A stretch of DNA of 64,000 bases from Okamejei kenojei (lineage: Eukaryota), in NCBI GenBank assembly GCA_035221665.1, contig CM069137.1, positions 25,234,001 through 25,298,000 of the forward strand, written 5' to 3'. The position numbers were made by a program, and so were the translations under genes. The notes under the pieces are model-generated. The model made no database searches, had not been told where the DNA came from, and worked only from the letters and a program-made list of their open reading frames with translations. Numbering within the stretch: the first letter of the stretch is position 1; every line of letters begins with the position of its first letter. Shown in pieces: positions 25,065-46,867 of the stretch.

Positions 25065-25312
25065 CAAAGCCGCTCACACAAATTTACAATGTCCAAAAGT
25101 ACGTCATTGGTAATAAAATGCCTTACTGGTTTACTGTATTGTGGGAAATGCAAAAGCCAATTTAAAAGCAGATGGATCCCATAAAGAGTGAAGTGATAAT
25201 AACCATGTAAACATTGCTTGAAGACATTGATTGGGAGATAAATATTATCCAAGGCACAAGGGGTAATTTCCTTGTTCTTGACTGAAATAGTGCCATGTGA
25301 TCCCATGCACTC
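25065..25312 (-). mobile_element. DeuSINE (SacSINE1-like) Deu-domain fragment
   Basis: GGGAGATAAATATT...GAAATAGTGCCATGTGATCC is the reverse complement of the Deu-domain core. Confidence 0.6.
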
Positions 25313-25449
25313 AATTGCCATCATGAAATAATTAGTTTCTCTTTTATCATTTTCTAGTTAACATGGGACTATCTACATAAGAATGGGGGTAATGTAATAA
25401 GAAAATACGAATTGGGAGAAAGAGTAGGTCGCCCTTGAGTTTGCTATTA

Positions 25450-25573
25450 TCTCTGGAGAAAAGGAATAGGTGATGTTTGGATCGAGACCCTTCATCAGAC
25501 TCGTTGAGATGCTGCCTGACCTGCTGTTACTCCAGCATTTTGTGTCTATCTTTGTTGTAAACTAGGATCTGCT
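25450..25573. mobile_element. Penelope-derived fold-back fragment
   Basis: Family motifs in both orientations (GAGACCCTTCATCAGACT / GAGATGCTGCCTGACC). Confidence 0.7.
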
Positions 25574-25666
25574 AAATGTATAGAAGTGTGAAAACGTACA
25601 CTTCCGGATTCAGGGATAGTTTCTTCCCAGCTGTTATCAAGCAACTGAATCATCCTACTACAACCA

Positions 25667-25975
25667 TCTTGGATAGAGTGGATGTGGAGAGGATGTTTCC
25701 ACTAGTGGGAGAGATTACGATGAGAGGTCAGACCCTCAAAATTAAAGGACGTTCCATTAGGAAGGAGATGAGGGGGAATTTATTTAGTCAAGGGTGGTGA
25801 ATCTGTGGAATTCTTTGCCATAGAAGGCAGTGGAGGCTGTCAATTAAGGGTGTCAGGGGTTATGGGGAGAAGGCAGGGGAATGGGGTTAGGACAAAGAGA
25901 TACATCAGCCATTATTGAATGGTGGAGTAGACTTGATGGGCCGAATGGCCTAATTCTGCTCCTATCAATTATGAC
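25667..25975 (+). mobile_element. CR1/HER1 LINE 3' fragment inserted into a Rex1 3' end (25575-26050)
   Basis: LDRVDVERMFPLVGE...RGQTLKIKGR; terminal GATGGGCCGAATGGCCTAATTCTGCTCC. Confidence 0.8.
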
Positions 25976-26084
25976 CTAACCAGAGAGCAGTGCTGAACTA
26001 CTTCCTACCTCTTTATCGGCTCTTGGACTATCCTTGATCGGACTTTGCTGGCTTGAAAACCTCAATACCTTTCCAAGGATCTCG

Positions 26085-27615
26085 AATATTTTACTGTCAT
26101 ATTCATTGGCACCAGAACAATACAATTCTTACTCACTGGAGGGAATATTAACGCATCAACATTACAAATACTTATATGATAAACAATAATGCAACAAATG
26201 ATCTGTTATACCAGGTGATCATACCATAATAGTGCAAGCCGAACGACGTAGTATAACCTTTAACAAACTCCATAGTATGATGGTGAGGTAGGGCTGTGCA
26301 GGGTGGTTTAAGAGCCTCATGGCTGATAAGAAGTTGTTCCTGAACTTGGAAGTAATGGTTTTCAGGCACCTGTATCATCTTCCTGATGGTAGCTGTGAGA
26401 TGAGAGCATGGTTGAGGTAGTGCGGATCTTTGATGATATTATGCTCCTTTCTTGAGGCAGGGCTTCCTATAGATTCCTTCAATGGTGGGGAGGTCAATAT
26501 CTGTGATGGTCTGGGCAATGTCCACCACTTTCTGTAGTCCCTGTGATCCTTGGTGTTCAAGTTACCAAACCAGGCTGTGATGCAAAAAGTCAACTTGTTC
26601 TTCATCATACACCCGTAAAAGTTTGTAGGAGTATTCAACGACATGCTGAATCACCACAAACCTTTGAGGAAATAGAGGTATGGATGACCTATCTATGTGA
26701 TTTTATCAATGTACTGAGCCCAGGATAGAGATGTGCAAGCAGAGGAACTTAAAGATGTTGACTCTTTCCATCAATACCCTGCTGATGAAGACAGGTTCAT
26801 GGGCCCTCTGCTTTCCCTTTTTGCTCAGCTCCTCGGTCTTGCTGGCATTGAGAGCAACATTGCTATTCTGACAGTACTTAACCTGATTATCAATCCCCCT
26901 CCTGTATTCTGATTTGTTACAAATTATTCATTCAACAATGGTAGTATTGTCAACAAATTTAAAGATGGTGTTGCAGCTGTGTTTGGCTACACATCATGGA
27001 TTTAGAGTAAGTAGAGCAGGGAACTAAGCACATAACCTTGAGGTGTCCCTATACTAATAGTCAGTGAGTAAGTAGTGTTGTTGGGAATTCATACTGCTTG
27101 AGGTCCGCTGATAGGAAGTCAAGGATCCAGTTGCATAGGGATAAATAGATCCCCAGTTCCATGAACTGATGAGTTTAGAGGGTGATGGTATTGAATGTTC
27201 AGCTTTAGTCAATGAAGAAGGGTCTCGACCCGAAACGTCACCCATTTCTTCTCTCCAGAGATGCTGCCTGTCCTACTGAGTTACTCCAGCATTTTGTGTC
27301 TATATGTAGTCAATGAACAACAGCCTGGTGTGCTTATTCCTATAGTCCAAGTGGTCCAGTGCAGAATGGAGAGCCAGAAAGATTGCATCCGCTGTTAATC
27401 CATTGTGGCAGTCAGCAAATTGGAGTGGGTCTTGATCCATACAAAGACTGGAGTTGATATGCATCACAACCTACTTCTTGATGTACTTCAATCACAATAG
27501 ACCTGAGTGCCACCATTTGGTAATTGTTGGTCTATCACTTTGCTCTTCTTGGACATCGACATTACGGGTATCCCTTTAAAGCAGGTGGAGACCTCAGAAC
27601 GTGGTGGTGAGAGGT
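26085..27615 (-). mobile_element. Rex1/Babar LINE, degenerate RT and 3' end
   Basis: GTPQG (27033-27048), KFVDNTT (degenerate FADD, 26943-26960), CITAWFGN, IIKDPHY...LPSGR. Confidence 0.8.
27217..27306 (+). mobile_element. Penelope-derived mini-element; 11-bp TSD; nested in Rex1
   Basis: TAGTCAATGAA at 27206-27216 and 27307-27317; core ..GAAGAAGGGTCTCGACCCGAAACGTC. Confidence 0.85.
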
Positions 27616-27674
27616 TTTACCACACTTCCTAAAATCAAGTGTACACTATCCTCCAGCCAAAGTCCAAGAACATG

Positions 27675-27802
27675 TTGAGGGTTCTGACCCCAAACATCAT
27701 CTATTCTTTTTCTCTAGAGATGCTGCCTGACCTGCTGAGTTATTCCAGCATTCTGTTTCTATCTTTGGTAAAAGCCAGCACCTCCAGTTCCTTCCTACAC
27801 AC
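27675..27802 (+). mobile_element. Penelope-derived short element, degenerate
   Basis: AGAGATGCTGCCTGACCTGCTGAGTTATTCCAGC...TTCCTTCCTACAC. Confidence 0.7.
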
Positions 27803-27867
27803 CTGTTTTATGTGTGTAGCTGTAGTTACAAGGCAAGTGTCTCAAAGATCCATTTTATCTCTCCTAT

Positions 27868-28702
27868 TGTGGGATACGATCCCGAAATCAAAGCGAGAAG
27901 CCAGGTGTATTGGGAAGTACCTTTTATTATGTCCTTCCGTGTCGTAAGGAAGTCCACGAGAGAAAGATGGCACCCAAAACCCTTGCCTTTAATCCCTCTG
28001 GTTAAGGGCCCCCTCTGAACTGAACCATTCCCGTGCCGAGGGGTTTGACAGTTAGGATGGCCTGACCCTTGAGAGCCGCCACAGGACCCCCCCCCCCCCC
28101 AGAACCCGAGGCACGAAACACACCGGCGGGCGCACAACCCGGCCGGACCGCGTGCGGAAGTTAGCGGACCAAGGGGCTGGCGGAGGCACAGGTGGAGGGA
28201 CAGGTGGAGGGACAGGTGGAAGGACCAGCGGGAGGACAGGTGGAGTGACAGGCGGAGGGAGCCATGAAGGGGGCCGCCCTCGAGGCCGAGGTCGGGCAAC
28301 CAGCACCGGCTGGTCAATGTCCAGATGTGCCGGCTTCAGCCAGTCAATCGACACAGCCTCTGGCCGGACCCCCATGTCCAACACAAAGGTCATCTGCCCG
28401 TGTTCCAGCACTCGGAACGGGCCCTCGTACGGCCTCTGGAGTGGCGTCCGGTGGGCATCAAGGCACAGGAAAATACACCTGGTACCAATGTGGGGTACGA
28501 TCCCGAAATCAAAGCGAGAAGGCAGGTGTATTGGGAAGTACCTTTTATTATGTCCTTCCGTGTCATAAGGAAGTCCACGAGAGAAAGATTGCACCCAAAA
28601 CCCTTGCCTTTAATCCCTCTGGTTAAGGGCCACCTCTGGGCTGAACCATTCCATTGCCGAAGGGTTTGACAGTTAGGATGACCCTAATTGGGAGCCGCCA
28701 CA
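27868..28702 (-). mobile_element. Internally deleted Gypsy LTR retrotransposon (two LTRs, PBS, integrase C-terminus, PPT); 4-bp TSD CTAT
   Basis: LTRs 28489-28702 and 27868-28083 with TGT...ACA ends; CTAT at 27864-27867 and 28703-28706; PBS TGGTACCAGG at 28478-28487; G-run PPT next to the 3' LTR; GPF motif PLQRPYEGPFRVL...VSIDWLKPAH. Confidence 0.92.
28183..28260 (-). repeat. 12-bp tandem repeat encoding (VPPP)n in the Gypsy integrase tail
   Basis: GGAGGGACAGGT-like units, about 6 copies. Confidence 0.8.
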
Positions 28703-29770
28703 CTATCAACATTCTCTGGCATATTCAATAATACATGCACTAATAAAGTTCTTTAATTTTGCACCTCCTGGACATAGTACTGCCTAGAATCTGACTATGG
28801 CGAGGAAGGAATGCATTTACTAAAATAGGTCTACAAAATCTCGTGACCTCGTTCTCTCATGTTGATTGCTTTAGAAGGTCCTCAAGAACTTTCTTAAATC
28901 CACTATTAATATGATTAGACACAAAAATCACAGTTTTTCACTTCTGTGGCCAACTGTCAGAATGATTTTAAATATATTAAGCGATATACAGATGTGATGG
29001 ACACTGAAAGGACTTCAAGCTGATTTTTGTTATGTTAACGTCTTTCTTTACATTGCAGCATCTTTACTAAATAATTACAATTAATGCAAATCTCCTGTGG
29101 CACATGGAAGTTAGTGTGCCAGGTAGGAGGGTAGTGACATGTGTCAACGATTTAAAAAAATGGATGCACAGATGATAATTCCATTCTTGGTCTAGGTAAA
29201 ATTGACTTGCGTAATGAATTCCAGTGAGATTTTCTTTGTACATTTATTCTGCGCTCTCATAAAACATTTGCCAGTTTGTTGGTCTTAGCCATTTCAGTCA
29301 TTGATTCCTGTTGTGACCACATTCCTACTTAAGCTTAAGCACTTCCTGGCAAGCTAAAGTTGACCTTAAGAGCTTCATGCTGTTAGTTAATCATTGCCAA
29401 CCATCCCCTCATCAACCAACAGAGATCAACTTCCCAGAATAACAGTGTAGCAGGACACCAGGCACTCATTCCTTTGTGTAGTCTTTCTGAATTGAGGGAA
29501 ACAATAATAATACAATGGTGTCTACATGCTGTGATTCCAGTCCCTCTGCCATCTTTACCCTCTTGCGGAATGATAAGTTAAATGTTTCATATTTCATTAC
29601 GATGTCCAGTTATGAATAAAACTAGGGATTTTGAAGTCTTTCCCTTGTGGGATCTTGATTTTCTTTAAGATCATGAGAACCAAGGCATTTGCTAATGGCT
29701 ACCGACTGTGCTAAGATACCAATTTCTCAATCAGCAAATTGCATGATATAGAATCTGACAAAGATTGAGG

Positions 29771-29918
29771 TAAGAAGATAGATACAAAAAACTGCAGTAG
29801 GGTATCGACCCAAAACGTCACCTATTCCTTTTCTCCAGAGATGCTGCCTGACCTGCAGTTACTCCAGGTTTTTGAGTCTGCCTTTGGTTTAAACCAGCAT
29901 CTGCAGTTTCTTCCTACG
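29771..29918 (+). mobile_element. Penelope-derived mini-element with inverted 5' piece; 12-bp TSD (1 mismatch)
   Basis: CAAAGATTGAGG at 29759-29770 and CAAAGATTAAGG at 29919-29930. Confidence 0.75.
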
Positions 29919-30727
29919 CAAAGATTAAGGCAATCCTAATTTAATGAAAAAAAATAGTCCAGGCAGTTGTTGATTTGTAGGAATAGTTTAAAGTCTTATT
30001 AAACAATAGTATGTCATGAGATCCGAGAGTCTATCAGATACTTGATATAATAAATGGTGCATAATAGCTGAGAATTGTTTCTAAAGTTTTGCAACATTTA
30101 TGTTGTTATTCCTCTGTCATACCTGACAAGTTCATCTTGTCTCCACTTTTCCATTTTTTTACAAACATATCCTCTTTGCATATTACTAAAATTTCCATTT
30201 GCCTTTACATTTTAGAGTGTGCGTCTTGATGTCTTTGTAATAAAGTTAATCCCAAATCAAATCCCAAATTAATTAACCTTAGATCAGAAAGAAAGATCAG
30301 GTTGTTCGAGATAATTCTTGCAAAATTATAATATTAGTTTAAGTAAAATAAACTGTATCATCATTGACAGTAATTCTATTTAATCTCCCGTTAAAGCTTA
30401 TAATTATTGTGTTGGAATATAAATAAACAAAACATACTAGTTATCAAAAACAAGTTAAGGAATGCTCATGGTTTTGATTCCTGTTTATAAAATTATATTT
30501 TAAATGAGTAATTATACTTTGTTGATTCAATTGGAATAAAATTAATAGTCTCTAATTTCTTCAGAGCCTGGGTAGAATAAAATGATAATGAGTCGTCAAA
30601 TGGAAGCAGGAAATTGGACAAGACCTGGAAATGCACTATATCATTTTGAGTTCTCCTTTTTAGCCAGAGCCTTGGGATTGACAAAGATCTGTTTTCTATC
30701 TGGCTTTGTATATTCTGAGGTCATTGA

Positions 30728-31000
30728 TTCATAGATTCATACAACGTGTGAACAGGTCATTTGACCCAACTCATCCATGCCCACCTAGGTGTCTCCCTCA
30801 GTTAGTCCCAATTGTCTGTAATTAGGCTCATGTCCCTCTAAACCTTTCTCATCCAGAGCCTGTCCAAATATATTTTAACCATTGTAATTGTACCTGCCTC
30901 TGCCACTTCCACCAGCAGCTCATTTCATATACACACTATCCTCTGTGAAAAAAACATGTCCTTCAGGTATTTCTCACCTTAAAACTATGCCCTCAACTAT
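30728..31000 (-). mobile_element. CR1/HER1 LINE 3' fragment
   Basis: (CATAGATT) tail; TGTCCCTCTAAACCTTTC...ATTGTACCTGCCTC. Confidence 0.7.
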
Positions 31001-31004
31001 GCCC

Positions 31005-31985
31005 TATGAGGCCAATGTGGGAACCACAGATCACATCACAAAGGGGCAGGCAAGTGTATAGATTGCCAAGTGATGCACTCCTGCTGTTTCTACAGGTCTT
31101 CAATGCACTCCTGACACATGGACTTGAGGTTTTCTACTCCATCTCAAATGCTATCTTTCCTTTTTGATAGTCATGTATGAACGATTCCCACAAGTTAGTG
31201 GAGATGTTGTGATCCTTTCAAGGAGGCTTTGAACACAACCTTGAATATTTTCTTTTGTCCACATGATAATTTCTTCCCACAAAGAGCTTGGAATTGAGTA
31301 TCTGTTTTGGCAATGTAATGAAGTGAATGCAAATGACAATAATGAAAAACGTTTTCACCCAGAAAGTTGTGAACCTGTGGCACAGAAGGCAATGGAAGCC
31401 AATCCACTGGATGTATTCAAAAGTGAGTTAGCTATAACTCTTAGAGCTAATGTAATCGAGGGATATGGGGAAAAAGCAGGAACAGGGTACTGATTCTGGA
31501 TGATTAGCCGTGATCATATTGAATGGCGATGCTGGCTCGAAGGGCTAAATGGCCTACTCCTGCACCTATTTTCTATGTTACTTTCTATGTAATGGCCTCT
31601 CTGAAGTAGCTGACAGAATGCTACTGGGAGTCTCAATGGTGTAGATGTTGGCTTCGAATAGGACACCTGTTGTTGTTTCACTTATCTTACATTATCTTAT
31701 TCTCCAAGATAGGGTAAGCCATCTGAACCAACACCAGTGGAGGATTCTGTGGAAGCAGTGTTGGTGGTAGCATTCTTGTGCCTAAAGGCATCTGTGGTAG
31801 TAGTCCATGTAGCAAAGGAGCAATGATCATTGTTGTTCAATGGATCATGAGTATGAAGTTGCAGATCAGAAACATGCATTTTCTCTCTCCAGCACCAGTA
31901 CGCCCTTTGTCAGTCCAGGGAAAGAGTGTCTGAAGAGCAAGACTTTTGAATTAATTGTCTACTGGACCTTGTTTGTTCATCAAAG
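31005..31985 (-). mobile_element. RTE-clade LINE 3' fragment, interrupted by a CR1 3' end (31345-31590, +)
   Basis: Minus-strand peptide remnants YHQHCFHRIL, LPKQILNS and GQKKIFKVVFKASL match the RTE C-terminal region. Confidence 0.65.
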
Positions 31986-34900
31986 GTGCTACACAAGCTT
32001 AGGTTGATTCTTTATTTTTTTTTTTCAGCAACTCAGCATAATGTAAATAGTAAATCAGGGAAGAATACACAATTAATTGGGTACACTTTTTTACTAATTT
32101 GTTACTGTGCTGATACATTGAACTTTTGCCATCAACATTTGAGCCTCATCTTTCCCTAATATATAATATTTGCACCCTTCAATTTCACTTAGCATGTCGG
32201 ATGTTGCACACATTCTGCTTAACTGAATTTGAATTTGTCAATAAAGAAATTATATTTTTCACTTTTAACCAATTTTTGCACATCCTTCATCAGCAATAAA
32301 TGTAAAATTATCAGCTAATAGTCCATCTATATTATGCTTATCTTTACCAAGATCAAGTAGAGATTGGAATGGTCCAGTACTGCACAACTTACTTAACAAG
32401 AACCAAGTTTACAGTGATGGATTTATGCCAGACATGAACAAACATTAGAACTAGGTGCATGTGTCCCATCTGTACTTTATTTTAGACACATTCAAAAATA
32501 ACATTTGAGGTCAAAGTCTTTTAACAATGAGCCATGTACATATCAGCACATCATTTTCTGTTCCTTTACATTAGAAAATTGCATACTGACTATCTCAAAA
32601 TTAGAAAATCTCAACCATGTGCCGCATGCAGACATTTCCCTGTCAATCTCTCTCCAATTTATATTTTCATTACCATGCCTTTCTTTACATATGCAAAAGT
32701 TTAGTGCATTATAAATCATGCAGAACTCAGTATTTCCTTTCCTACTTTTGCTGTTGAATTAATCACTCCTTTTGTTTAAAATGTTTTATTTGGTTTGCTT
32801 TCTTTCCTGTTTTTTTTTTTTATTGCACCATTCATCTTTCTGACTTCGTTTTACAAAAAGGTGGATAATTCAGTTAGTATTCCTGAGGAATTGTTAACTA
32901 CTTTTTAAGCTTGGTACCTGCTGGTATCCGCTGGAGAAAATAGCACAGCTGTGCATCTGGCCTTCTGCTGACCCAGAACCTGTAATGGCATTATCCCATA
33001 GTTTTTGCCAGGTGGGAATGCCAGTGTCTGCAGATCGCTGCACTGTGTGCACCTGGTCTGTCAATTTAAGCTGTCTGTGTAGTCCCCTGGCATAACATCA
33101 TACTTACGATATCACTTAAAGATTGACATACTGTGATTGGGACCTTTCCAGGAACTGTGCTGCATTAGCCAGTCACACCTTCACAAGGCATATTTGTGCC
33201 ATTGCATCTGGCATCACAGACTCCTTTGGAAATTTAAGTTTCTGCACGCACTGATTCTCTGCCAAGGCAAGACGCGCTGCTCACTGCTGGTAGCAGAAGG
33301 GCATGGGGATACTGAGGAACAGGTACAAAAAACCTCTGACACTCGACATACTCCCATTTGTCACTTTGCTCCAAAATTTCCATCTGTGGGGAGTTCCACT
33401 GGGAAATCCTTTGGTGGCAGAATTGGAACTGAAGAGTGAAAAAATAAGTTGCCAAAACAATCAGATGATGCTCCTGAAAGGTTAAGTTAAGCATCATTTT
33501 TCCAGGTGGGAGTTCTTAATCTAATTAGTTTTCTACCCAGAAATGCATGCATGGTATTAATTCCACAGAGATCTGTTAGATGAAGCACTGCCAGATGTTC
33601 CCTTTGTTACACCTCGTAATCATTCCTGAAAACCCTAGGGACATCAAAGTGTTTATTCTATTCCTATTAGAGTACTACTGGTTTCTGAACACATTATGGG
33701 TGGGAGCAGGGGTATGTACCAGTGTTGAAATATGACTGCAAACCGAGCCACATTAAGTGCACCCCTTATGTCCTTGGTGATATGGGGCCATGTGTAGGGC
33801 ACTGTATAGGAGTTTGTGCTAGATTGCACTGTTTATTTGAGTGCAGCTTGCAAGAAATTGTCCAGACTGCTTTAAAATATTTCAGAATTTCCAGCACAAA
33901 TTACATATATTTCATGTTGAGTTTCAACAATCTTATTCATAGATTAAAAACTTCTGCACAAGATGGCCCTGTGTAATATAAACTAGCTACACCCTCAGAC
34001 TAAATTAATCACCATTCTGAGGTTTCCGTTTTGTAAATACTTGCTTTATAACAAGCAAATGTTTGAATATTGTTCCTAAAATTAATTTTCAGTATTTTTA
34101 TTTAAAATGTTTTCATGTTTTATTTTGTAGTTGGACTAATCAGACCGAGTGTTTTGTTTGATGTATTATCCAACTTTTACCATTAACCTGTAATATTTTT
34201 CAATGCAAAATGGTTTCTGAAACAGAGTCCAATTTGGTGATTCATGACAGATTTTGTATTCAAAAGAGTTTGTTCAGAATTTTGGGGAAAAATTACTTAC
34301 TAAAACCATCATTACTCTACATCAGAGTCAGGGATTTTAATCCAAATTGGAAACTCTACCCTCTGTACACTGAAAGTTGCAAGCCTCACTAACCTGTTGA
34401 ATAATATCATGGCTGTGGTTACCTGAACAATGGTACAGCCTGTGAAATTTACCAGTGCCTAAATGTTTATCATTATTCAAAATATAAATGGATAAATACT
34501 CAATAATTCTAATACTAAATTGTTAGCAACCTCAAATAAGAATCTTTCAGGATGCTTACACTGGTACAATCATACTGATATGAAACAGTTTAATTTTCCA
34601 TGTATACTGCAATCACCAATTATGTACAGTGTAAGTTTGATCTAGGGACTTGAGAGTGAAGTCTAATGCAAATTCACTCCAGAGATACCATCGCCAAAAC
34701 TAAACTAAACACCTCATGCTGAAGTTAAATTGTCAGTAATTCCATGCTTAAGGATATGATTTCAACCACTTTTGCCATGCTAAGCAGGAGATAAAACCTT
34801 TGGGCTTCATCACTCTGCCTCTATTTCAACACTTGGGAGCAGGGGTGATCACTTGAATCAGTGAGACAACTTGTACATTTTAACCTGATCGGAGAACCAG

Positions 34901-36146
34901 TCAGGACTCAAAGAACATTCTGAGAGCCAACTGACCCAGAGAAATAATAATGAACAGGTAAAGCCTGCTAGGGTAGAATGGAAGTCAGCAGGAAACTACA
35001 AAGCTTATCATTGTGAGTTGTGAGTCAATTGGATCAGCATAGTATGCCTGGGACCTCAACTTGAATCACCAAGACATCGAAAGCTACAAAGCAAGTGCTG
35101 TAAGTTGAATAGTTGGGTACTGGATATTTGCCATATGCGTGGTGCACTATAGGGACTGATTGTGTGCTGTCACCTGCAAAACTTGCTATGACTGCCATTT
35201 GCAAAATTTACCTGGAGAGCTTTGCAAACCCAAAGCGTGATCTATTTGAGATTTGCGGAGCAGCAGACAGCTGGTATCCTCTCTTTATCCACCAGTGAAA
35301 CATTAACTCCAGTACAGGAAACCAAACAATACTTCCTTCAGTTACTGCCTGAGCTCATTTTCTTCTCCATTGAGTCTTCCTAAATGTACACATACCCCAC
35401 CCCCACCTGAGCACCATCAATGGTGCTGAATTGTTTCCTGTGGCATCTGGTCCACTCACGTCTCAAATTTGACATATTTTTGGTTCTAGCTACTGCCACA
35501 AAGATTGATGATTAAATATGTCTTTCAATTGGAATCACATAAAATGTTTGATAATTTTGGCATGTTGACTACATGACAAATTTGACTCAAGTCAACCTGA
35601 AATTTCCAGAATGAAAAATGATTTTATTCTAGGATTATAGTTCTCTCAACATTTGGATTACAGTCCTGTTGTTGGTGGAACATTAAAAAGCAGACATGTA
35701 CCAAGTCCCACCCCTGTCTTTATTAAATGGTGCGCATGACATCACATCCAGTGGGCTAAGTTCAAACAAAAATCCTTTGATGTTCTTCTGTGTTACATCT
35801 GTGCGCATTTGCTCTTTATGTTTAGTCAGCAGTGCTTAGCTGCATCGGCCAAAATCGTTTGGATTTAGGGTCTAAACCATTATTTCATGTTGCTTATTTT
35901 AACCCACGCTCAAGAACTAAGTAGGAACACACCAGCTAATCACAATCCCATATTATACCTAATAAACACCCTTGCGAACTTGTGTATATAAGGAAGTTAA
36001 AAGGTCAAGGGGGAGTTCAGTACAAATTAAAGTAAATAGGTCAAAATTATTTTTATTTAAATGAAAAACAGACTCGACTGATGAAGATTTTAAATGGTTC
36101 CTTTTAGTGCGCTGCCTCATGGAAACTGATTAATCATATTGTCCTG

Positions 36147-36327
36147 GAGACACAAGGAACTGCAGATGTTGGTATAAAATACAGTGCTGGAGTAACTCAG
36201 CGTGTTAGGCAGCATCTCTGGAGGGGATGGATAGGCAATGTTTTAGGTCGGGAATTTACTTCAGACCCTTGTCTTCCAGAGATGCTACCTGACCTGTTGA
36301 GCAACTCCAGCACCTAGTGTTTTTATC
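36147..36327. mobile_element. Penelope-derived fold-back mini-element; 15-bp TSD
   Basis: AATCATATTGTCCTG at 36132-36146 and 36328-36342; arms GTGCTGGAGTAACTCAGC...CTCTGGA and TCCAGAGATGC...CTCCAGCAC. Confidence 0.85.
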
Positions 36328-36581
36328 AATCATATTGTCCTGTTCCACCTACTCATCAATGAAAGTCAATATATTTTTACTACACTTTTTGGTCACAGCA
36401 GTTGAAACAAAAGGAAATAGGTAGAAATGTGGAATGTAAAGTGTTCATATATTCTGGATATGATTCAGCTTTAATATGATTAGATATTAGATTGGTCAGT
36501 TCAAGGATGCCAGTGTACTCAGCCTGGCAAAGTTGAAATTAGTTCCACTCATTTGCAACCATTTGCCTCAAAAGTGCACAT

Positions 36582-36716
36582 GACATGAATTGAACGGATG
36601 TGATCTGCCAAATCTGGACTGGAGCAGAAACTGGTCTGGAATTGGTCCCAACAGCAGTTGTAAGTGATATTCTTTCCTGAAGTAGTGCTTCCATGCCCAT
36701 TTATCAGCGCTGGAGT
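36582..36716 (-). pseudogene. AEBP2: Captured coding fragment of AEBP2 (first C2H2 zinc finger region)
   Basis: 45 open codons [45 protein letters not shown], closely resembling vertebrate AEBP2 ([46 protein letters not shown], recalled). Flanked by the 11-bp direct repeat TCAAAAGTGCA. Confidence 0.85.
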
Positions 36717-36746
36717 AAAAGTCAAAAGTGCAGGGTAAGTGCCTGC

Positions 36747-37100
36747 TAGAGTCATAGAGTCATACAGGGTGGAACTTGCCCACAGCGACAAGATGCCATA
36801 TCTACACTTGTTCCACCTGCTTACACTTGGCCCATATCCCTCCAAACCTGTCCTATCCATGTATCTGTCTAATTGTTTCTTAAACATTGCAATAGTCCCT
36901 GCCTCAACTATCTCCTCTGGCAGCGCGTTCCATACACCCACCACCCTTTGTGTGAGAATGTTACCCCTCAAATTCCTATTAAATCTCTCCCCCTCACCTT
37001 AAACCTTTGTCCTTTGGTTCTTAATTTGCCTTCTCTATGCAAGAGACTCTGCATTGATCCGATCTATTCCTCTCATGATTTTATAAACCTGTATAAGATC
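36747..37100 (-). mobile_element. CR1/HER1 LINE 3' fragment
   Basis: MRGNILTQRVVGVWNALPEEIVEAGTIAMFKKQLDRYM; (CATAGAGT) tail. Confidence 0.85.
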
Positions 37101-37759
37101 AATACACCTCCATAAGACCAATACACCTCTATAAGATCATCGTTTTATGCTGTTCTCCTTTGTGCTGTTCGAGTTTCACCATGACCACCTGACTGCACAA
37201 ACATGAATCAGAGAGATGAATTCCAATTGCAGAGGTGAGATGGGAAAAAAAACTCATCTTGATATAAGAAGAATATTTTACTGAGTGTGAGCAACAATGG
37301 GGACACTGTCCAATGGGCTGCAATCATTTGCTGCACAAAGAAAGATGTTTGTGATTCTTTCCAGAGTCCTATATAACTCAGGGTTATGGATTGCGGTGTT
37401 AAGGGTTATGGGAAGAAGGCAGGTGAATGGGGTTAAGAAGGAAAGATAGATCAGACATGATTGAATGGCGGAGTAGACTTGATGGCTGAATAGCCTAATT
37501 TTTCCCCTTTCACTTATGACCATATGAAGCCATCACAAACATGCATAATTGATCAATTCACCTGATAACTCAGATAGCCAATGCTCATTTTGACTGGATT
37601 AATGGTCTACTATAATTTTATATCAACAATATAGTTCTTTAGTAAACCTTTCCTTCTCTTTGATGTTCCAAGGATTGGATGGTTCCCGCTTGTTGTTTAA
37701 AAGCTCAGTGGACTACTCTCAAATGGCAACATCCTCTTACTGAATATTTTAATTGCTAA

Positions 37760-38073
37760 AGGGCCTGTCCCACTGTACGAGCTAATTTAAGAGTTTCCCC
37801 ATGTTTCCCCTGATTCGAACTTGGAGAATTACGGTAATAGCCGCTTGTAGGTACTCGGGGCTCTCGTGGACATTTTTCAACATGTTGAAAAATCTTCACG
37901 AGTCTTCACGAGCTTATCGCATTTCCCGAGTACCTGCCGTTAGCGTTACGAGTCGCTAAGAGACATCCCGAGCTCCGACATACCCGTTACGTACATTCTA
38001 CGTGCTTACCACGAGTTTTTTTGTTTTTTTTAACTCTAGAGAGCTCTTGAATTACCTTGTATAGTGGGACAGG
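37760..38073. mobile_element. PIF/Harbinger-type MITE
   Basis: TIR AGGGCCTGTCCCACTGTACGAG ... CTTGTATAGTGGGACAGG (right tip eroded); TAA on the left flank. Confidence 0.75.
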
Positions 38074-38459
38074 AGTATCTTACCTTCAAAAGTAGGAGAT
38101 ATGTCACAAGCTCTAATGATAGAGTTTGCTGTATCTGCTATATTGAACACGGGGGTGGAAGTCCAGTGGTTAGTTGAATCAGGCTGTTTTGATGAGTCTG
38201 ATCTGAATCATTTTGATTCCCACACAGATTAAGAACAGCAGTATAACATTTTTACTTTGCAGGAAAAGCACTGTAATCACATTTGCACCATGCACTTGAA
38301 GTTTTTTGATGTGGACCAGCTGTAAGTTCTGCACAAGACTCAATTAGCAGCTGCATTGTACACAGCATTGTGATTATCTGTCTACGGATGATGTGTGGAT
38401 CTAACTGATGCCCTTTACATTGAGATTTATTAGCTAATGAAGATAATGCATTAAGTAGT

Positions 38460-39340
38460 ACTTTACAATGATTCTGAACCCCATTCTAATTAAACCTAAT
38501 TTATCCTTTCCCTTTCTAATGGCTTGCTGCATCTACGTTTTAGATTTCTGTGATTTGGGTACTATCTTTTCTTTTGGATGCCCAAAATTTCCCAATCTGT
38601 CTCCTTTAAAACTTATTTTACTTTCTAGCTTTTTAACTGAATGTGAAGTGGATACATTCACATTTCCCATATTGTACCCCGCCTGGCACTTTCTCGCTTA
38701 ATCACTTAATTAGTCTGCATCGTTTTGCAACCTCCGCATATCCTCCTCAAGGTTTATTTTTTCTCCTATACCTCCCAGCATGGTATCATTGGCAAACGTA
38801 AATATATTATACTGAATTCCTTCATTCGAGATGTAACTGTAGATTTCAGGTAGCTGAGATTGAAGCCCTGATCCTAGCATCTGTTTACATCTGCCGTCCT
38901 GACAGTGGCCCGCTGACGTCTACTTCCTGCTCTGCCATGTGTTGTTAATCCCAGTTCATATGAGCAAAGATTCCTTGAGCCCAGTCTTGTATAACAATCC
39001 ATTATGCAGCATTTTATCAAACCTCTTGTGAACATCTAAATTTTCCACTTCCACTGGTTCTCCTGTATCCACCTTGCCAGTTTCTGCATCAAGAAAATCT
39101 AAAAGGCCCATAGATATTATTTCCCTTTTATAAATCATATGGTTTTGCACCAATACCCAATGATAAATTCTGACCATTTTTTTCTATTACTTTTATCAGA
39201 GAAAAACAATAATAAGTTTTCTCTCTCTCTTCTTTTGAATAATTCTTTTATTGGATACTTTCCAAATCGAGGGAACCATTCTAGAATATAGGAAATTATG
39301 GAAGATCACAGCTAATGCATCCTTTGACCTCTGTAGCCAG
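38460..39340 (-). mobile_element. Old CR1 LINE RT fragment
   Basis: VDTGEPVEVENLDVHKRFDKMLH (LDFxKAFDKVPH-like), FANDT (FADDT-like), VPSIWK. Confidence 0.65.
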
Positions 39341-39777
39341 GTGGCAAAATTGGCTTTGAAATATAATCTGATGTGATACATTTTTGTTTTGTTGTCCAGA
39401 ATTAAAAGATACTAATACATTATTTACATTATGGTATTGCTCCATATGAAAATGTTCATCCATTTTCAATATTGTTTTGGATTCAGGAGGATCTGCACAC
39501 ATAGCCCCTCATTAAAGGAGTACTTCTTAACGTCCACTGACTCTTTGCACAGAGGCATGACCTGAGGGCACTACAAGAGTACCCCCTTGTGGTCCGAATT
39601 AGATGTTCTGGGTGTTGCATCTAATATAAAGTGCACCTTGCCAATCTGCTCGTAGCCAAACTGAAGAGATTTGAATGAGTCAAGGCCGATTACAGAAGGC
39701 AGGTTATAATCAAGAAAAACTTCATTTAACTTTTGCTCATGAATAAGAATAAGAATAATCCACAGAGAAAGTAGAAA

Positions 39778-40920
39778 TAAGGAACTACATATGCTGGTTT
39801 ACAGGCAGAATCTCTGGAGAACATGGACAGGTGACATTTTAGGTTGGGACCCTTCTTCAGAATGATTTTGGTGGGGGTGGGCAGGGAAGAAAGCTGGAAG
39901 AGATGACGGACAGGAGAAAGTCTGGCTGGTACAAGGTTGATATGGGTGAGGGGATTTTTGATAGGTTGATGGTCAGACAAAGGGGGTGGGGGTAGTTATC
40001 TAAAATTCGATGTTCAGATTGTTGGATTATAAACCACCAAAGAATATGAGGTGTTGTTCCTCCAGTTTGTGTGGCCTTAGTCTGCCAATGGCGATGGTGC
40101 AAGGCAAAAAGGACGGTATGGGAATGGAAAGATGACATAAAATGGTTAATAATTGAGAGACCCAGAAGGCCTTGGAGGATCAAGCACTTGCTCTCAGTCC
40201 GCTAAGGCCTACTAGATCTCCTGGATGCTAATAATTTAACTCCTCTTCCCATTCCTAACATGACCTTTCTGTCCTCAGCCTCCTACATTGCCAGAGTGAG
40301 GCCACATGCAAATTGGAATAACAGCACCTCATATTACACTTGGGTACTTACAACCCAATGAGTATGAATATTTGAATTCTCCAATTTTAGGTAAGCACAA
40401 CCCCCACCCCTTACTTCTATCCCCACATCCAACGCTTCTTTCCCCTAGCCCCTGACCTTTTCCCCACCTGAACCTGCACATATTTCTCTCCTCCCATTGC
40501 ACCTAATTCCTTCTTCTAGCTTCACTATTTGTAACTCTTCAATGTTTTTGTCTCACACATTCTATCTTTTCATTACTGGCCTTTATCCAGCCATCTGCCT
40601 GTAAAAACACCTCATCACCTGTGTCAGGCTATTACAAGTATAGGAAGGAACTGCAGATGCTGGTTTCCACTGAAGGTAGACACAAAATGTTTGAGTAACT
40701 CAGCGGGTCAGGCAACATTTCTGAAGAAAAGGAATAAGTGGCGTTTTAGGAGACCCTTCTGTCTATTGTCCTGCTCTTCCTTTCTTCCAGCTTTCTTGCC
40801 CCCCCCCCCCCATCCCCCACAATCAGTCTGAAAAGGGTCCTCTCCGAAGAGTCATCTATCCATGTTCTCCAGAGATGCTGCCTGATCACGCTGAATTACT
40901 CCAGCACTTTGTGTCCTTTG
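39778..40920. mobile_element. Penelope-like element remnants: two GIY-YIG C-terminal/pLTR segments in inverted orientation
   Basis: Plus strand 40280-40380 encodes LHCQSEATCKLE*QHLILHLGT-like GIY-YIG end; an inverted homolog lies at about 40000-40090. Both run into the short-element family terminus. Confidence 0.75.
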
Positions 40921-42118
40921 CTATGTCACATTATCTCACATTTTCTGTTTAGCCTTTTGGGTCAAAACTGTTCTGTGAGTCAGATTTTCCTATCTAAACT
41001 CGTTTCTGAAATGTAACAAGAACAGAGAATGATTTATTTCCTCCTCTTTTATTAGTTTTACTCACGTGAGAAAAAATCTTCTGACTTTTGTTTGCTATTG
41101 AATGATGCACTAGGAATTCTGTCAATTAAATAGGTTGACTCTACCTAGATGTAGTCAATGACAAAACTATGTTTGACTCAAATGAAATATGATATCTCAA
41201 TTATAATATGTATAGATTAACCTGAGATGTGGCTTAACATATATCGTTAAGAATATCCTCAATGCTAGCCTATTTACTTTCACTGTCCTGTAAACATTGG
41301 TGGAATGTATCCTTTGGAATACTTCAGATTTCATTGCTAAAGTATTTCTGTAATGTTATTAGAAGAGGGAAATTTGGGATTTGACCTTTGCATTGTTAAA
41401 GGAAGATACAATAGTGTTGTTTAACAGGCTTTTAGAAAGGCACATGGAACTGCAAGAAATAGAGTAAGATCGATCACGTACAGACAGATGAGATCAGCTT
41501 AACTGGGCATCATGTTCGGCACAGGAATTGTAGGCAGAAGGAGCCATTCCTGTAATGCACTGTTCTATGAAGAGCGACATTTGTCCAAGTTAAAATTGCA
41601 TACTACTTCAAGGCTAATTTGAAAGTAGAAATATTGACCAATAGAATATCTCTCTCCATGTACTGTATATAATAATCACTGCAACCATGTCACAGTAATG
41701 TTGGAATTATTGGATGTTTAACTTGGTGGATGGGTATTCGATGCATTGACCATGGTATGATGAACTTGAGTTATCTTGCACCTATCCAGGCTAATGGAAA
41801 GTATTCCATCAAGGTTCAGATTGAATACCTGGTAGATAATAGAAGGGGTTGGTGTCTCAGTTAGGTATCACAGTACTCAGCATATGAGAGACTGTTATAG
41901 TAACCTTGGTAAGTGATTGATTTAATTGAGTTTCTAACTAAAAATGCTTAAGCAATAAATATCAAAGAAATGTGGTGACATTTTCTCTTTTTGGCAATGA
42001 TTATTGTCTTTCACAAGTTTATTCGTTGGTTCTTATTTGAAGGTAGCCACAACGATTCCATGTGCATTCTGTGCAAACATGGTTTAAATACAACATTATA
42101 ACCATAATGAGATAGTAT

Positions 42119-42716
42119 AGGGCCTGTCCCATTTAAGCGATTTTTAGGCAACTGTCATAGTCGTAGCAGGTCGCCGAAAAACCGGCGACTGGACCCCCTA
42201 TGACAATGTCTAGGACAATGTTTACGACAAGCTACAACAACCTACCACCTAGTCAACGTCAAGCTACGCCAAGTAACTGACAACTGGCGACTCATTAGGA
42301 CGTCCATCTATGACCATACCTATGACAACTTACAACCTACGACCACACAGGCGACAACCTAAGACAACCGGTCAATCTACCACACCCGCGGCAATCTCCG
42401 ACCCTGTTAGCGACAACTGAAGACAACTGAAGACAATTCAGTCACCCGTATCTGAAGCTGGTTGATGTAGGTAGTCACCAATTGAATTCACCAAAGTCAG
42501 CACCGGCGACAATCTATGTCACCTGCCGACTGTCGCCGACTGTCGCCGAAAAATTCTGAACATGTTGAAAATCCAATGGCAACCAGAAAGATGCTACGAC
42601 TCTTTGGGCGACTGAGGAGACTACTCATGACCATTCAGGCGACACCCCGGTGACCATGTGGCGACAGCCTGGTCACCCGTAGTCACCTAAAAAATAGCCT
42701 AAGTGGGACAGGCCCT
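42119..42716. mobile_element. PIF/Harbinger-type MITE with internal GACAA-rich repeats
   Basis: TIRs AGGGCCTGTCCCATTTAAGCGATTTTT / AAAAATAGCCTAAGTGGGACAGGCCCT; flanks TAT/TAA. Confidence 0.85.
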
Positions 42717-43444
42717 TAACTGATGCACGTGGACTTCAATGCCACCACTGCCCCATGAACTATGTTAACACTGGCTCTCATTTTTTTGATGGAGATTTAT
42801 GCTTAAACAAAATGGGTGGTGCAAACATACAAATCTTTAAAAACTTAATTGTCAATGAAAAATACCACGTACTAAGTAATTGAAAATTGGACATATATGC
42901 AGGGCAATGAATAAAAAAAGAATGAGATGATGATGAATGTGTGCAGCCTCGTAGTTGGCATTAGCTGGAGTATCTTGTGTGGTCCAATGAACTGCCAATG
43001 TCATTCTTCATTAGGTGCCAAGAAAGGAGGCATTAATGGGCTGTATTGCAGCTTCATTTATTTTCAGCAGTTCTTAATTATACATCAGGGGTAGATTTAC
43101 AAGTACATGCTGCTGACACACACCCTCACCTGCTGGCAGCACAAATCAGAGACTGAGCAATTCACAGACCACCATTTTCCAACCAATGGTCGGAAAGTCA
43201 TTCAGATTTTTAATTTGCACTGCTGGTGGGCCAAGTTCCTCACTGGTGGCCTGGAGTCGTAAAGTTACGCCCATTATTGACAGATAGTGTTACAGGTTAC
43301 GTACATAGCTGAGCAGAGCAGATAAAACTGACAATACTTAACATTTTGATAATTACTATGATTCCGAAGACAAAAGCATTGTGGAAATGTTGCTAGTCTT
43401 TCCTTTAGAGAGTGCAATTAAAATCAACTCGAAAGCAATCTAAC

Positions 43445-43878
43445 AAGCTGTCAGCTTTGGCTCAATGATAGCAGTTTTGCCTCTGAGTCATGAGGTTGTG
43501 TTTTAAACCTCTACTCCAGAGAACGGAGCTTGTAAACTGGCTGACAGTTTAGTGGAGATAATAAGGAAGCACTGCACCATCTTTCTGATGCATTTTTAAA
43601 TCGAGACACTGTCAACCTTCTCTCAGTAGGATGTAAAAGATCCCATGCTACTATTCAAACCAGAGCAGCAAGGTTGTCAAGGCCAGTATTTATCTCTCAA
43701 CCAATATGGCGAAGTAAACAGATTACAGGGTCATTTAATTCTTGTCATTTATGGGACTTTGCTGTGTATAAAGTTGGCTTCTATGTTTTCTTGGGTTACA
43801 AGCATTAATCTTCAAGAATTGGCTGTGAAGTGTTTTGGAACATAACAAAGTTGTGAAAGATTTAATACAAATTATTTA
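43445..43878 (+). mobile_element. Near full-length ancient DeuSINE (SacSINE1-like)
   Basis: tRNA head TGGCTCAATGATAGC...GCCTCTGAGTCA; Deu core GGATGTAAAAGATCCCATG.TACTATT...TATTTATCTCTCAACC...GGGACTTTGCTGTG; tail GTTGTGAAAG. Confidence 0.75.
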
Positions 43879-46159
43879 TTTCTCTTTCATATTGAATTAC
43901 ACCCACAAAGAGTTTAAGGATGACTTCCCTTAAATGATTTTCCTGTTGTGAAATACTTCTATCTGATTTGACAAATTTGAAAGAAGTTTAAAAGTTAAAT
44001 GTCTTATGAGTTCAGTTAGTACAACAGTCAAATGTTTTTTTTCAAAAATCCATCTAGCTACAAAAGAGAAAGCATTGTTACTAGTATGGAAACGCAACTG
44101 TTACAATTAGCGTCATTGAACTCTGACCTGCTCCCAATTCTTAGCAGAATAAATCACATTGTACGGACTAATTGATTCCATGCAATAGCAGCAATTGAAG
44201 GTGGAAACCAGAAAGCAGGATGTTTATTAATGAAGGTTCATTAATCAAGATTGACAATAGTTAAGAACGACAAACATGGAAGGCGTAATGTTAGTTAGAA
44301 TAGATATTAAGTATTAGGGGAGCTAATGCAGTAACAATAATGGCCAAACACATGGCACGGAGGTGGTATGGAAGCCAACATAAATGGGCAACATCCCAAC
44401 ATGTTTATGCTGCACTGAAGATTCTGTGAGTAATTAATTATTATCTAATTTGAACCATAATACACAGGATATAGCAGTTGGTTACTGATGCTTTCTTGCC
44501 CTTCGGCACACCTCATTAGGGTCATAAGTACAGCGGTTGTGTTGAAGGTCAGTTAGATAGGTTTGAGATCACTTTTACACAGGATTTTCTTTTGTGCACA
44601 GAAGATCTTGCTTCCCTGCCTCCAGCAACCCCTGACGATCGGAACATCGTGAGCACTGAACAATGCAAACTTGTAATCACGTACTTTGTGTTTAGTTGAC
44701 GTTTACATAAAATTGGCACATTTACAAAGTCTACACAATACACATCTTAGAAAACTGTGTGGAGGTTACCTTCTGCCTCAAATCAATTAAACATCAGGAT
44801 TGTTTAAGAAATATTCAACTACATTTTCTCATTTTTCACCACAGGAAATAAACTGGCACCGTCATATGTATTTATGTTGGAAAATAATTACATCACATTT
44901 AATTGTGCAATCTCTCAAATGGCTTTGATTATACCACATAACACGATTCTTCATTAATCTTGGTGCTAATTTTTATTTCTTGCGAACATGATAGCAAATT
45001 TGAAACAATACTTCATAAAGTACATTAAAATAGCTAAAAGATGTCAATGGGTGTACATTAAAACTTTTCTATAATATGTAAAAGGAATATCCCTGGAGTT
45101 CTTTCTGAATAAGTTCATTTTTCCCCCTTGACATAAACATGTGCCTAAAAGAGTTGATGTTGTTTCTACCAGACATATGAAACAAACATTTCACATTTTT
45201 ACAGATGCTTTTAATTTGGGAGTGGTTTCCAATGCAATTTAGATCAAAAGTATCCATGTAGACAATCCAGAGTTGCTTAATTCCATGCCTTTCCAGGATA
45301 AAGTTGAACCACATCAGTAGGTATGGGTGTGACACCCACAATACTGGATGCACTCCCAAATACTGGAGGCACTCCCATAAAGTATCCCAGAAATATTCGA
45401 GGCAGGCATCCATCTGTCTTTATAAAGCTAAAGAGCTGTTAGAAATATGTTGTCTCAGATAGTCTATTTTTATCTTAAAGGTAACATGACGTCACCAGCA
45501 TGAGAGCAAATTAAGCATGATAATGACCAATGCAACTCTAAAGATGGTGGCTTAAATAGATAAACAATGATTAGCAGCTGTCTTGCACCTCAGAAGCATA
45601 ATTCTCATTGTATTTTCTGGTAAGTGAGGGTTTTCAATATGTATCAACAAATTCACTGATGTCATTTCATTTCATGCTCTCTTATTTTGACACTTTTGGG
45701 TTCATTCTATTGCTCTTCTGTAATCAATTTCTTACCATAGAAAGAAAATTAAATATTTAAACATCCCATGATTTATCAGTTAAATGATCAGATTATTTTG
45801 AACCAATAAATGAACCTAAAATGGTTCCACTGCTTCATATTAATCGATTTTCCATTATAACACGAGGTAGTCTGCCACAACAAGAAGGAAGCACCCTTTT
45901 GCTAAAAGCATTTACAGCATACATATGGGTGCAGCTCTAGAGATTGTCAGTAATAGAACTCAACCTCTGTTCTTTCCATAGTCATGTGATTGCGGGTGTG
46001 GGAAAGTGAGTGCTGACAATGGGGGCGAGAGAGAATGTCATCAAGTAATTTCAGTAGTTTTGTAGGCTGAGAATTCTGAGAGGTATAGGAAATAAACTTC
46101 TACAAATGCTCTCTCAGTTGCAATGGAGCTATTGGGAGCCAACATTTGAAGTTGCCATC

Positions 46160-46437
46160 GGCACAATGACTGGTAGGATTGTTGTCTCACAGTGCCAGAA
46201 TCTTGGTTTTCATCTTGATCTTGGATGCTGGCAGTATGGAGTTTGCATGTTCTCCCTGTGACCACTTGGATTTCCTACAGGTGGGTTTCTAGTTGGCCTC
46301 TGTAAAATTGCCCTTATGTGTCGGAAGTCAGTGAAAAAGTGGGATAATACAGAACTAGAATGGATGATCGATGATTGGTGTGGACTCCATGGGCAGAAGA
46401 GTCTGTTTCCATGCCGTATCTCTAACCTAAACCTAAA
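46160..46437 (+). mobile_element. HE1-type V-SINE, internally deleted
   Basis: GGAGTTTGCATGTTCTCCCTGTGACC core; (CTAAAC) tail. Confidence 0.75.
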
Positions 46438-46772
46438 TATTAGCTCGATTGACAAAGGGAATGGTCCCTCATTGCAAACTGTTCCACAGCTAATTACATA
46501 AATCAATAATATTCATATCCTCCAACAAAGACTTGTAATACAATAGGGGCATCTGTTAACCATCTATTTGTTGGTAAATTTCTCTTTGTACATAACTCAA
46601 AAGAAAATGGTAGATGACACTGTCACAAAAATAATTATCACATGCGAACAACAATTGGAATTCAGATATATGACTTTTGAGCTTTAATGGAGGTAATGGG
46701 TATCCTCTATATAATCTGTAGCCAACTTATCAGTTACTCAGTTATTCACCAGATTTTCACCCAAAATAAGAT

Positions 46773-46867
46773 AGACACAAAAAGCTGAAGTAACTCAGCG
46801 GGCCAGGCAGCATCTCTGGAGAGAAGAAATGGGTGATGTTTCGGCTCGGGACCCTTCTTCAGCCTTC
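46773..46867 (-). mobile_element. Penelope-derived mini-element; 17-bp TSD
   Basis: TTCACCCAAAATAAGAT at 46756-46772 and 46868-46884. Confidence 0.85.

What the first reader, a model, noticed from the sequence alone, without database searches (positions are those of the whole stretch)
36568..36732. AEBP2 zinc-finger fragment pasted into the ARHGAP15 intron with an 11-bp duplication and no poly(A)
Seen: a 143-bp insert (36579-36721) between two copies of TCAAAAGTGCA (36568-36578, 36722-36732). 135 bp of it encode TPALINGHG...[27 protein letters not shown]. Established: this is the first C2H2 finger region of the PRC2 cofactor AEBP2; the second zinc-ligand Cys has become Phe (TTC). The insert is truncated at both ends with a few non-matching junction bases, unlike a classic L1 retrocopy. 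Inference: an internal mRNA or cDNA piece captured at a staggered break, with the same geometry (about 100-150 bp, 10-17 bp TSD, no tail) as the Penelope mini-elements, hinting at a shared capture mechanism.
Basis: partly seen in the sequence, partly recalled or inferred. Interest (0 to 1): 0.7.

Follow-up and report, generated by a model that had tools for sequence, protein, structure and literature searches.

The report
Tailless AEBP2 fragment in skate intron
A 136-base piece from the middle of one exon of the chromatin gene AEBP2 sits between two copies of an 11-base sequence in an intron of another gene of a skate, likely pasted there recently by a jumping gene's copying enzyme; it is real but probably inert and of a kind already known from mammals.

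Summary
An exact 11-bp repeat flanks 143 bp. Of these, 136 bp match a contig from a probable RNA run of the same species at 135/136, and 44 of 45 residues match skate and sawfish AEBP2. The insert lies in the last intron of ARHGAP15, in sense orientation. A second sample has both junctions. A relative about 3% diverged appears to have the empty site (inferred from contig ends and depth), so the insert is young. The piece lies wholly inside one exon, so RNA versus DNA origin is not shown. Best reading (0.58): a doubly truncated, tailless retrocopy made by a non-LTR reverse transcriptase that primed inside the mRNA, a class described in mammals. There is no Penelope terminal repeat, 10-17-bp duplications are generic, and the local mini-elements are much older. 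One post-hoc hint favours it: a 10-nt junction word shared with 9 of 19 mini-elements. Unexplained: read depths hint at further partial copies of this exon in two skate species. A LINE tail 14 bp away is older and unrelated.

The parts
36568..36578 (.). Left copy of the 11-bp target-site duplication
   Evidence: Exact, not extendable. A second-sample contig spans this junction with 0 differences, 36338-36611 (X4 record 17).
36579..36581 (-). Three bases at the 3' end of the fragment not matched to the parent contig; either a 5-nt stutter of the fragment's end or parent sequence after a 1-nt deletion
   Evidence: Parent match stops at 36582. Local-copy chance 0.17; with one parent base skipped, 6 of the next 7 positions fit the codons of the following parent residues.
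36582..36717 (-). AEBP2-derived segment, 136 bp, from the middle of the exon encoding zinc finger 1; no start codon, no parental splice site, no poly(A)
   Evidence: 135/136 to a 2554-nt contig of a probable RNA run of the same species (X21 record 9). 44/45 aa to P0001 and P0002. Exon limits from read-through ORFs.
36640..36640 (-). Single difference from the parent: second zinc-ligand Cys codon reads Phe
   Evidence: Not seen in the one contig listed at this base for the second sample.
36718..36721 (-). Four extra bases at the 5' end, part of a 6-nt copy of the adjacent target sequence
   Evidence: chance for random bases 0.047.
36709..36718 (+). 10-nt word at the 5' junction shared with the window's Penelope-type mini-elements (9 nt parent-derived, 1 nt extra)
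   Evidence: In 9 of 19 mini-element loci; background 37 of 60,175 positions. Found post hoc.
36722..36732 (.). Right copy of the 11-bp duplication
   Evidence: A second-sample contig spans 36688-36851 with 1 difference (X4 record 18).
36747..37141 (-). Neighbouring 5'-truncated LINE 3' fragment (CR1-like, label recalled) with an 8-nt repeated tail and a 19-bp triple repeat at its 5' end; older than the insert and not part of it
   Evidence: Summed depth up to millions in all four runs; the relative that lacks the insert has this element's 5' junction (X6 record 32).
10363..55977 (-). Host: last intron of ARHGAP15, about 45.6 kb
   Evidence: tblastn of skate, sawfish and catshark ARHGAP15 finds only the two flanking exons in the window.

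Best explanation
This is a 136-bp piece of one AEBP2 exon, flanked by an 11-bp direct repeat in the last ARHGAP15 intron, likely made recently as a tailless retrocopy when a non-LTR retrotransposon enzyme primed inside AEBP2 RNA and stopped early. Shown: identity, limits, orientation, presence in two samples. Inferred: (1) staggered nicks 11 bp apart, from the apparent single-copy empty site in a relative; (2) the left target end primed copying about 18 nt short of the exon end, probably through an imperfect match of a few bases; (3) synthesis ended after about 140 nt and was joined to the second nick with four target-copied bases; (4) the copy has no start codon or usable donor and is probably neutral. 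The enzyme is not identified. An L1/Tx1-type LINE is my first guess because this class is documented for L1 and a decayed endonuclease-plus-RT LINE lies in the same intron.
For: Exact 11-bp repeat. In the relative (X6), a 449-nt contig of depth 11.2 matches 36335-36567, leaves the window exactly where the repeat begins with 75 letters to spare, and the only X6 depth at 36734 is also 11.2. Depth arithmetic fits one copy of the repeat better than none (implied parent depth 12.5 versus 16.9; single-copy contigs 10.9-11.2). The source is exonic and matches a probable RNA-run contig at 135/136. The 3' extra bases plus the start of the repeat fit the parent's next codons at 6 of 7 positions if one base is skipped; with skips of 0, 2 or 3 bases, at most 2 of the first 7 positions fit. 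PMC5322556 defines tailless retropseudogenes by 8-35-nt duplications, no A tail and internal priming, and reports doubly truncated forms from mRNAs and L1 RNA. A LINE with RVT_1 (E=7e-15) and a weak endonuclease match (E=0.017) lies at about 15540-19300.
Against: No exon junction, so RNA origin is untested. The nick that would prime on sense RNA lies in a site that is not T-rich; the only L1-like TTTT/GA word is on the other strand, 2 nt inside the repeat (the site consensus variant is recalled). The target does not fit the TT/WAAAAWW consensus of tailless copies in the sense orientation. The local LINE is broken into at least 10 open stretches over three frames, so it is not itself the active source. 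Parent nucleotides beyond the match were not displayed, so priming homology is inferred from codons only. The joint row for the empty site was not among the 15 shown (208 hidden). The RNA label of X21 is the tool's guess.
Confidence: 0.58

Rival explanations
1. Repair-templated insertion: a staggered break was patched by a repair polymerase that switched to AEBP2 DNA (or a loose cDNA), with end slippage adding the extra bases. No transposon endonuclease was needed.
For: Both junctions carry short local copies (6-nt match at the right junction, chance 0.047; at the left 0.17). The size is within the 73-414 bp of experimental break patches (PMC5110952). The piece has no splice junction.
Against: Class 2 templated insertions are defined by having no duplication and often a microdeletion; here there is an exact 11-bp duplication and no sign of target loss. 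A random genomic donor would rarely be a coding exon (general knowledge).
Confidence: 0.2
2. Penelope-like element machinery copied AEBP2 RNA in trans; a 9-10-nt match to the element's own RNA may have ended synthesis or bridged the 5' join.
For: 5 of 19 mini-element loci have exact duplications of 10-17 bp and 2 more have one mismatch. A purified Penelope protein starts inside its RNA without homology to the target and cuts both strands (PMC11167929).
Against: No terminal repeat or hammerhead is carried, whereas described Penelope captures lie between terminal repeats. The purified protein needed the first 172 nt of its own ORF RNA. The shared word is at the end where copying would stop, not start, and only 1 non-parent base continues the element's sequence. 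Local mini-elements are far older (mean 80% identity over 91 pairs). The Penelope label itself rests on a recalled motif and on papers; Rfam gave no hammerhead hit.
Confidence: 0.12
3. The insert is one member of a small repeated family carrying part of this AEBP2 exon, amplified in this skate lineage, rather than a one-off copy.
For: In relative B, 4 contigs sum to depth 92.7 at 36640 and about 50 at 36582-36586 against about 11 for single copy, with no variant letter listed that would explain the branching. In the second sample of A, about 727 extra depth lies at 36582-36586 (single copy about 32) and a depth-30.5 piece ends at 36648. Relative F has one unbranched 1658-nt contig over the exon.
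Against: Summed contig depth is not copy number (tool warning); overlapping contigs and repeats elsewhere in a contig inflate it. Both junctions of this insert are single-copy depth. Ordinary 5'-truncated processed pseudogenes would give the same signal. Three protein searches returned no skate-like partial ORF.
Confidence: 0.07
4. Artefact or by-product: a mis-assembly, a chance repeat, or a chimera formed with the neighbouring LINE.
For: The LINE tail is 14 bp away on the same strand, and the two read through as one 149-codon stop-free frame.
Against: Both junctions are present in an independent sample and study. The relative has the LINE's 5' junction and the flank at 36734 but not the insert's left junction. 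The duplication encloses the AEBP2 piece only, and no duplication of 7 nt or more flanks the LINE.
Confidence: 0.03

Closest known systems
Tailless retropseudogenes (Noll et al. 2015, PMC5322556; parts 1-4 of 5 read, 6 supplementary files searched by term, file 1 not searchable)
   Same: No A tail, 3' truncation inside the source RNA, duplication within 8-35 nt; doubly truncated mRNA-derived forms are described (51 histone copies; 5,593 doubly truncated L1 forms).
   Different: Reported there for therian mammals and the anole; no mention of shark, skate or fish found in the text or the searched supplements. The target here does not fit their consensus in the sense orientation, and priming complementarity is only suggested.
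Templated sequence insertion polymorphisms, classes 1 and 2 (Onozawa and Aplan 2016, PMC5110952; parts 1-2 of 4 read)
   Same: Short sequence copied from a distant locus into a new site; extra junction bases as in class 2; duplication as in class 1.
   Different: Fits neither class fully: class 1 has poly(A) and a polyadenylation signal, class 2 has no duplication.
Host-sequence capture by Penelope-like elements (Arkhipova et al. 2013, PMC3846280, 12 of 13 passages; Frangieh et al. 2024, PMC11167929, parts 1-2 of 4)
   Same: Duplications of 8-10 bp in the cases quoted; internal, tailless initiation.
   Different: Captured sequence there lies between terminal repeats; here there is none, only a 9-10-nt shared word.
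AEBP2 zinc finger 1 (PRC2 cofactor; PDB entries)
   Same: 44/45 aa to skate and sawfish protein, including a one-residue deletion seen in 3 of 3 batoid and 0 of 11 shark proteins shown.
   Different: An isolated fragment with one zinc ligand changed in the assembly; no start codon or splice sites of its own.

Membership tests
Tailless retropseudogene | Flanking duplication of 8-35 nt | tested here: met
   11 bp exact; empty site inferred in a relative.
Tailless retropseudogene | 3' truncation inside the source RNA with no oligo(A) tail | tested here: met
   Ends 18 nt before the exon end; 3 extra bases, no A run.
Tailless retropseudogene | Target complementary to the RNA at the 3' breakpoint (2-18 nt) | tested here: inconclusive
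   6 of 7 positions fit parent codons only after a 1-nt skip and with one mismatch; parent bases not displayed.
Tailless retropseudogene | Target consensus TT/WAAAAWW in element sense (a population trend, not required of each copy) | tested here: not met
   In sense orientation the repeat begins TGCAC; an A-rich start exists only in the opposite orientation.
Tailless retropseudogene | RNA origin (spliced junction or other RNA mark) | tested here: inconclusive
   Single-exon piece; matches a probable RNA contig and a genomic exon about equally (1 and 2 differences).
Tailless retropseudogene | Active L1 system in the genome at the time | tested here: inconclusive
   One decayed endonuclease-RT LINE in the window; no genome held.
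Classic processed pseudogene / class 1 TSIP | Poly(A) tail at the 3' end | tested here: not met
Class 2 TSIP (break-repair patch) | No target-site duplication | tested here: not met
   Exact 11-bp repeat.
Class 2 TSIP (break-repair patch) | Extra or locally copied junction bases | tested here: met
   3 and 4 extra bases; local copy chance 0.17 and 0.047.
Penelope-mediated capture | Captured sequence flanked by pseudo-LTRs | tested here: not met
   Longest match of the insert to a mini-element is 10-14 nt.
Penelope-mediated capture | Penelope family active at the time of insertion | not testable with these tools
   Window copies are old; no genome held.

The most novel reading that the evidence does not exclude
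Penelope-like elements in skates retro-copy host mRNA fragments without any terminal repeat, using a 9-10-nt match to their own RNA to end the copy, and have done so repeatedly from this AEBP2 exon in one lineage. That would be an undescribed source of tailless exon fragments in cartilaginous fish.
Probability: 0.1. Interest if true: 0.65.

Novelty: new member of a known kind. Interest (0 to 1): 0.25.

Why it matters
As it stands this is one small, young, probably neutral insertion. It is useful as a presence/absence marker among skates, and as a sign that tailless, doubly truncated copies of mRNA exons form in cartilaginous fish, a group not mentioned in the main survey I read. It would matter more if a genome-wide set showed which retroelement makes such copies, or if the extra depth proves to be repeated capture of the same exon. 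The join also created an acceptor-like sequence in the host gene's orientation, the raw material for a cryptic exon, but no good donor follows it.

Tried and rejected
Pfam finds no family for the 46-aa piece. A search for skate-like partial AEBP2 ORFs found none: 1 of 1 candidate at 24-79 aa was 76% identical, and none of 49 representatives exceeded 80%. No AEBP2 locus was found in metagenome contigs (583 pattern matches, none confirmed), so parent nucleotides beyond the match remain unseen. The sequencing-run search listed no holder on record as RNA; X21 shows one contig at flat depth over the AEBP2 part and nothing joined to the flanks, which is no evidence on exonisation. Relative F has no cover of the left flank at 90% likeness, so its site was not seen; only its unbranched parent exon is informative. 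The fragment as RNA folds no better than shuffles (z=+1.3). Rfam: 0 matches at gathering level in the window and no hammerhead at E up to 10 in 53450-54100. The Atlas gave only unnamed clusters for the LINE fragment beside the insert, so 'CR1-like' stays a recalled label. Twin priming with a Penelope RNA was considered and rejected: the shared word is identical, not complementary, to Penelope first-strand cDNA as I orient the element. A LINE-AEBP2 chimera was rejected on age. Literature: ten searches, listings only unless named above; none of the listings described an AEBP2 retro-fragment or tailless mRNA fragments in skates. Earlier findings by place, by sequence and by one word set returned nothing; the AEBP2 word search returned one unrelated red-alga note.

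Full report
Observation. The sequence shows an exact, non-extendable 11-bp direct repeat at 36568-36578 and 36722-36732 around 143 bp. The minus strand encodes 45 residues matching AEBP2 (PDB E=5e-19). Among 134 proteins passing the cut-off (138 candidates, 120 listed), the best two, from a skate and a sawfish, are 44/45 identical, differing only at the second zinc-ligand Cys. The piece shares a one-residue deletion with 3 of 3 batoid proteins shown and with 0 of 11 shark proteins, so it was copied from a batoid gene. A flanking repeat like this arises at only three places in the window for a segment of this size, and the other two are simple repeats. The host is ARHGAP15, nearest named match a skate at 93% over 59 residues; the insert lies in its last intron, in sense orientation.

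Limits within the parent. Single-exon read-through ORFs from other vertebrates leave the AEBP2 frame six residues after the fragment's end, and several enter it about 18 residues before its start. The fragment is therefore the middle of one exon, with neither splice site and no junction. This is the main limit on interpretation: the sequence cannot say whether the template was RNA or DNA.

Evidence from sequencing runs. One search listed 24 runs: five of the same species holding 0.89-0.93 of the words, 14 from five related species at 0.24-0.44, two probable RNA runs at 0.05 and three same-label runs at 0.00. I laid 4 of the 24. The probable RNA run gives one 2554-nt contig matching 36582-36717 with one difference, the Cys/Phe base, so 3 and 4 bases at the ends are extra. 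A second sample from a different study has contigs across both junctions, at depth 34.1 and 24.6, which argues against mis-assembly; at the Cys/Phe base its one listed contig shows the parental letter, so that change is unconfirmed. In the closest relative, a 449-nt contig follows the left flank to 36567, has 75 further letters that do not enter the insert, and has the same depth (11.2) as the only cover at 36734. I read this as the empty site; the joint itself was not among the rows shown. Depth arithmetic favours one copy of the repeat there. Flank divergence to that relative is 16 of 568 bases (2.8%), and one change in 136 fits any age up to that split (1.9 expected at the split). The most distant relative laid shows one unbranched contig over the parent exon with two differences, so it has no near-identical second copy; its own intron site was not seen.

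The neighbour. A 5'-truncated LINE fragment (CR1-like, recalled label) ends 14 bp from the right repeat on the same strand. The relative that lacks the insert has this element's 5' junction, so the two events are separate and the LINE came first.

Junctions. The four 5' extra bases complete a 6-nt copy of the adjacent target (chance 0.047). The three 3' extra bases are either a stutter (chance 0.17) or parent sequence after a 1-nt deletion; in the second reading 6 of 7 positions, running into the repeat, fit the parent's next codons, which would be the imperfect pairing expected for internal priming. None of these is strong alone.

Mechanism. The simplest account is target-primed reverse transcription begun inside AEBP2 RNA at a staggered nick and ended after about 140 nt. 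PMC5322556 (parts 1-4 of 5) describes this anatomy as tailless retropseudogenes and notes many doubly truncated forms. PMC2912911 (12 of 19 passages) reports 3' microhomologies for such copies. Against it, the priming nick is not in an L1-like site and the target misses their consensus. Break repair with a templated patch is the main rival; it explains the extra bases, but the described class lacks duplications (PMC5110952, parts 1-2 of 4).

The Penelope proposal. The window holds 19 loci of a short repeat family, 5 with exact 10-17-bp duplications. I take them to be Penelope terminal stubs from a recalled hammerhead-like motif, from two alternative ends 35-40 nt apart like the 'tail' in PMC11167929 and PMC3846280, and from PMC4209133 (9 passages); Rfam did not confirm it. 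They are old (mean 80% identity among 14 of the 19), and the insert carries no terminal repeat. I found it after the fact, other repeat families were not counted as alternative coincidences, and it lies at the end where copying would stop. I give this reading 0.12.

Unexplained. Summed depth over the 3' half of the fragment is several times single-copy in the close relative (92.7 from 4 contigs against about 11) and about 727 over a few bases in the second sample. Summed contig depth is not copy number, but branching without a listed variant suggests other partial copies of this exon in these two species. Ordinary processed pseudogenes would explain it.

Function. None is evident. The join forms an acceptor-like sequence ending at 36710 on the host strand, but no donor scoring 6 of 9 or better follows down to 36480.

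Verdict. A real, young, single-exon fragment with a true duplication; most likely a new example of a known by-product of retrotransposition. Interest 0.25. A bioRxiv preprint on L1 chimeras (10.1101/2025.02.02.635956, 12 of 20 passages) did not bear on it; its supplements were not seen. Supplementary file 1 of PMC5322556 could not be searched and may list species relevant to the claim that fish were not covered.

Noticed in passing
window 36582-36680 laid against runs X4 and X6: Excess summed depth and branched contigs over the AEBP2 part in two species but not in a third: possible further partial copies of this exon elsewhere.
   Followed up: partly
window 36735-36710, minus strand: The target-insert join forms a pyrimidine-rich acceptor-like sequence in the host gene's orientation; no good donor follows.
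   Followed up: partly
window 36132-36342: Palindromic 181-bp mini-element with an exact 15-bp duplication, 240 bp left of the insert.
   Followed up: partly
window 3097-57045, 19 loci: Family of 45-190-bp Penelope-type stubs, some head-to-head; exact duplications of 10-17 bp at 5 loci.
   Followed up: partly
window 37083-37139: Three tandem copies of a 19-bp unit at the 5' end of the LINE fragment, suggesting slippage at its 5' join.
   Followed up: no
window about 15540-19312: 5'-truncated endonuclease-RT LINE (L1/Tx1-like, label recalled; zf-RVT lead) with many frameshifts; its 3' end runs into a 273-base N gap, so its duplication cannot be read.
   Followed up: partly
window 179-2072: GC-rich region with long minus-strand open frames (168 and 402 aa) and 87-bp tandem repeats; resembles a DIRS-type element (recalled); no Pfam match.
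   Followed up: no
window 27868-28702: 216-bp direct repeat at 92% around a proline-rich frame resembling an LTR-retrotransposon integrase end (recalled).
   Followed up: no
window 37764-38073, 40043-40335, 63507-63887: Elements with terminal inverted repeats, MITE-like.
   Followed up: no
window 3872-4155, 11622-11963, 21267-21569, 22698-23000, 46159-46425, 51685-52459: Another diverged repeat family of 200-300 bp, SINE-like.
   Followed up: no
window 57892-58130: GC-rich array of 18- and 43-bp units.
   Followed up: no
window 37197; 36734, 37120, 37176, 37281: Relative B has 11 extra bases behind 37197; the second sample differs from the window at three bases and one 1-nt deletion.
   Followed up: no
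proteins P0253, P0059, P0061: P0253 contains the same AEBP2 exon twice in tandem; two hamster records of 1156 and 1253 aa named as pleckstrin-homology proteins also contain AEBP2 sequence, probably annotation fusions.
   Followed up: no
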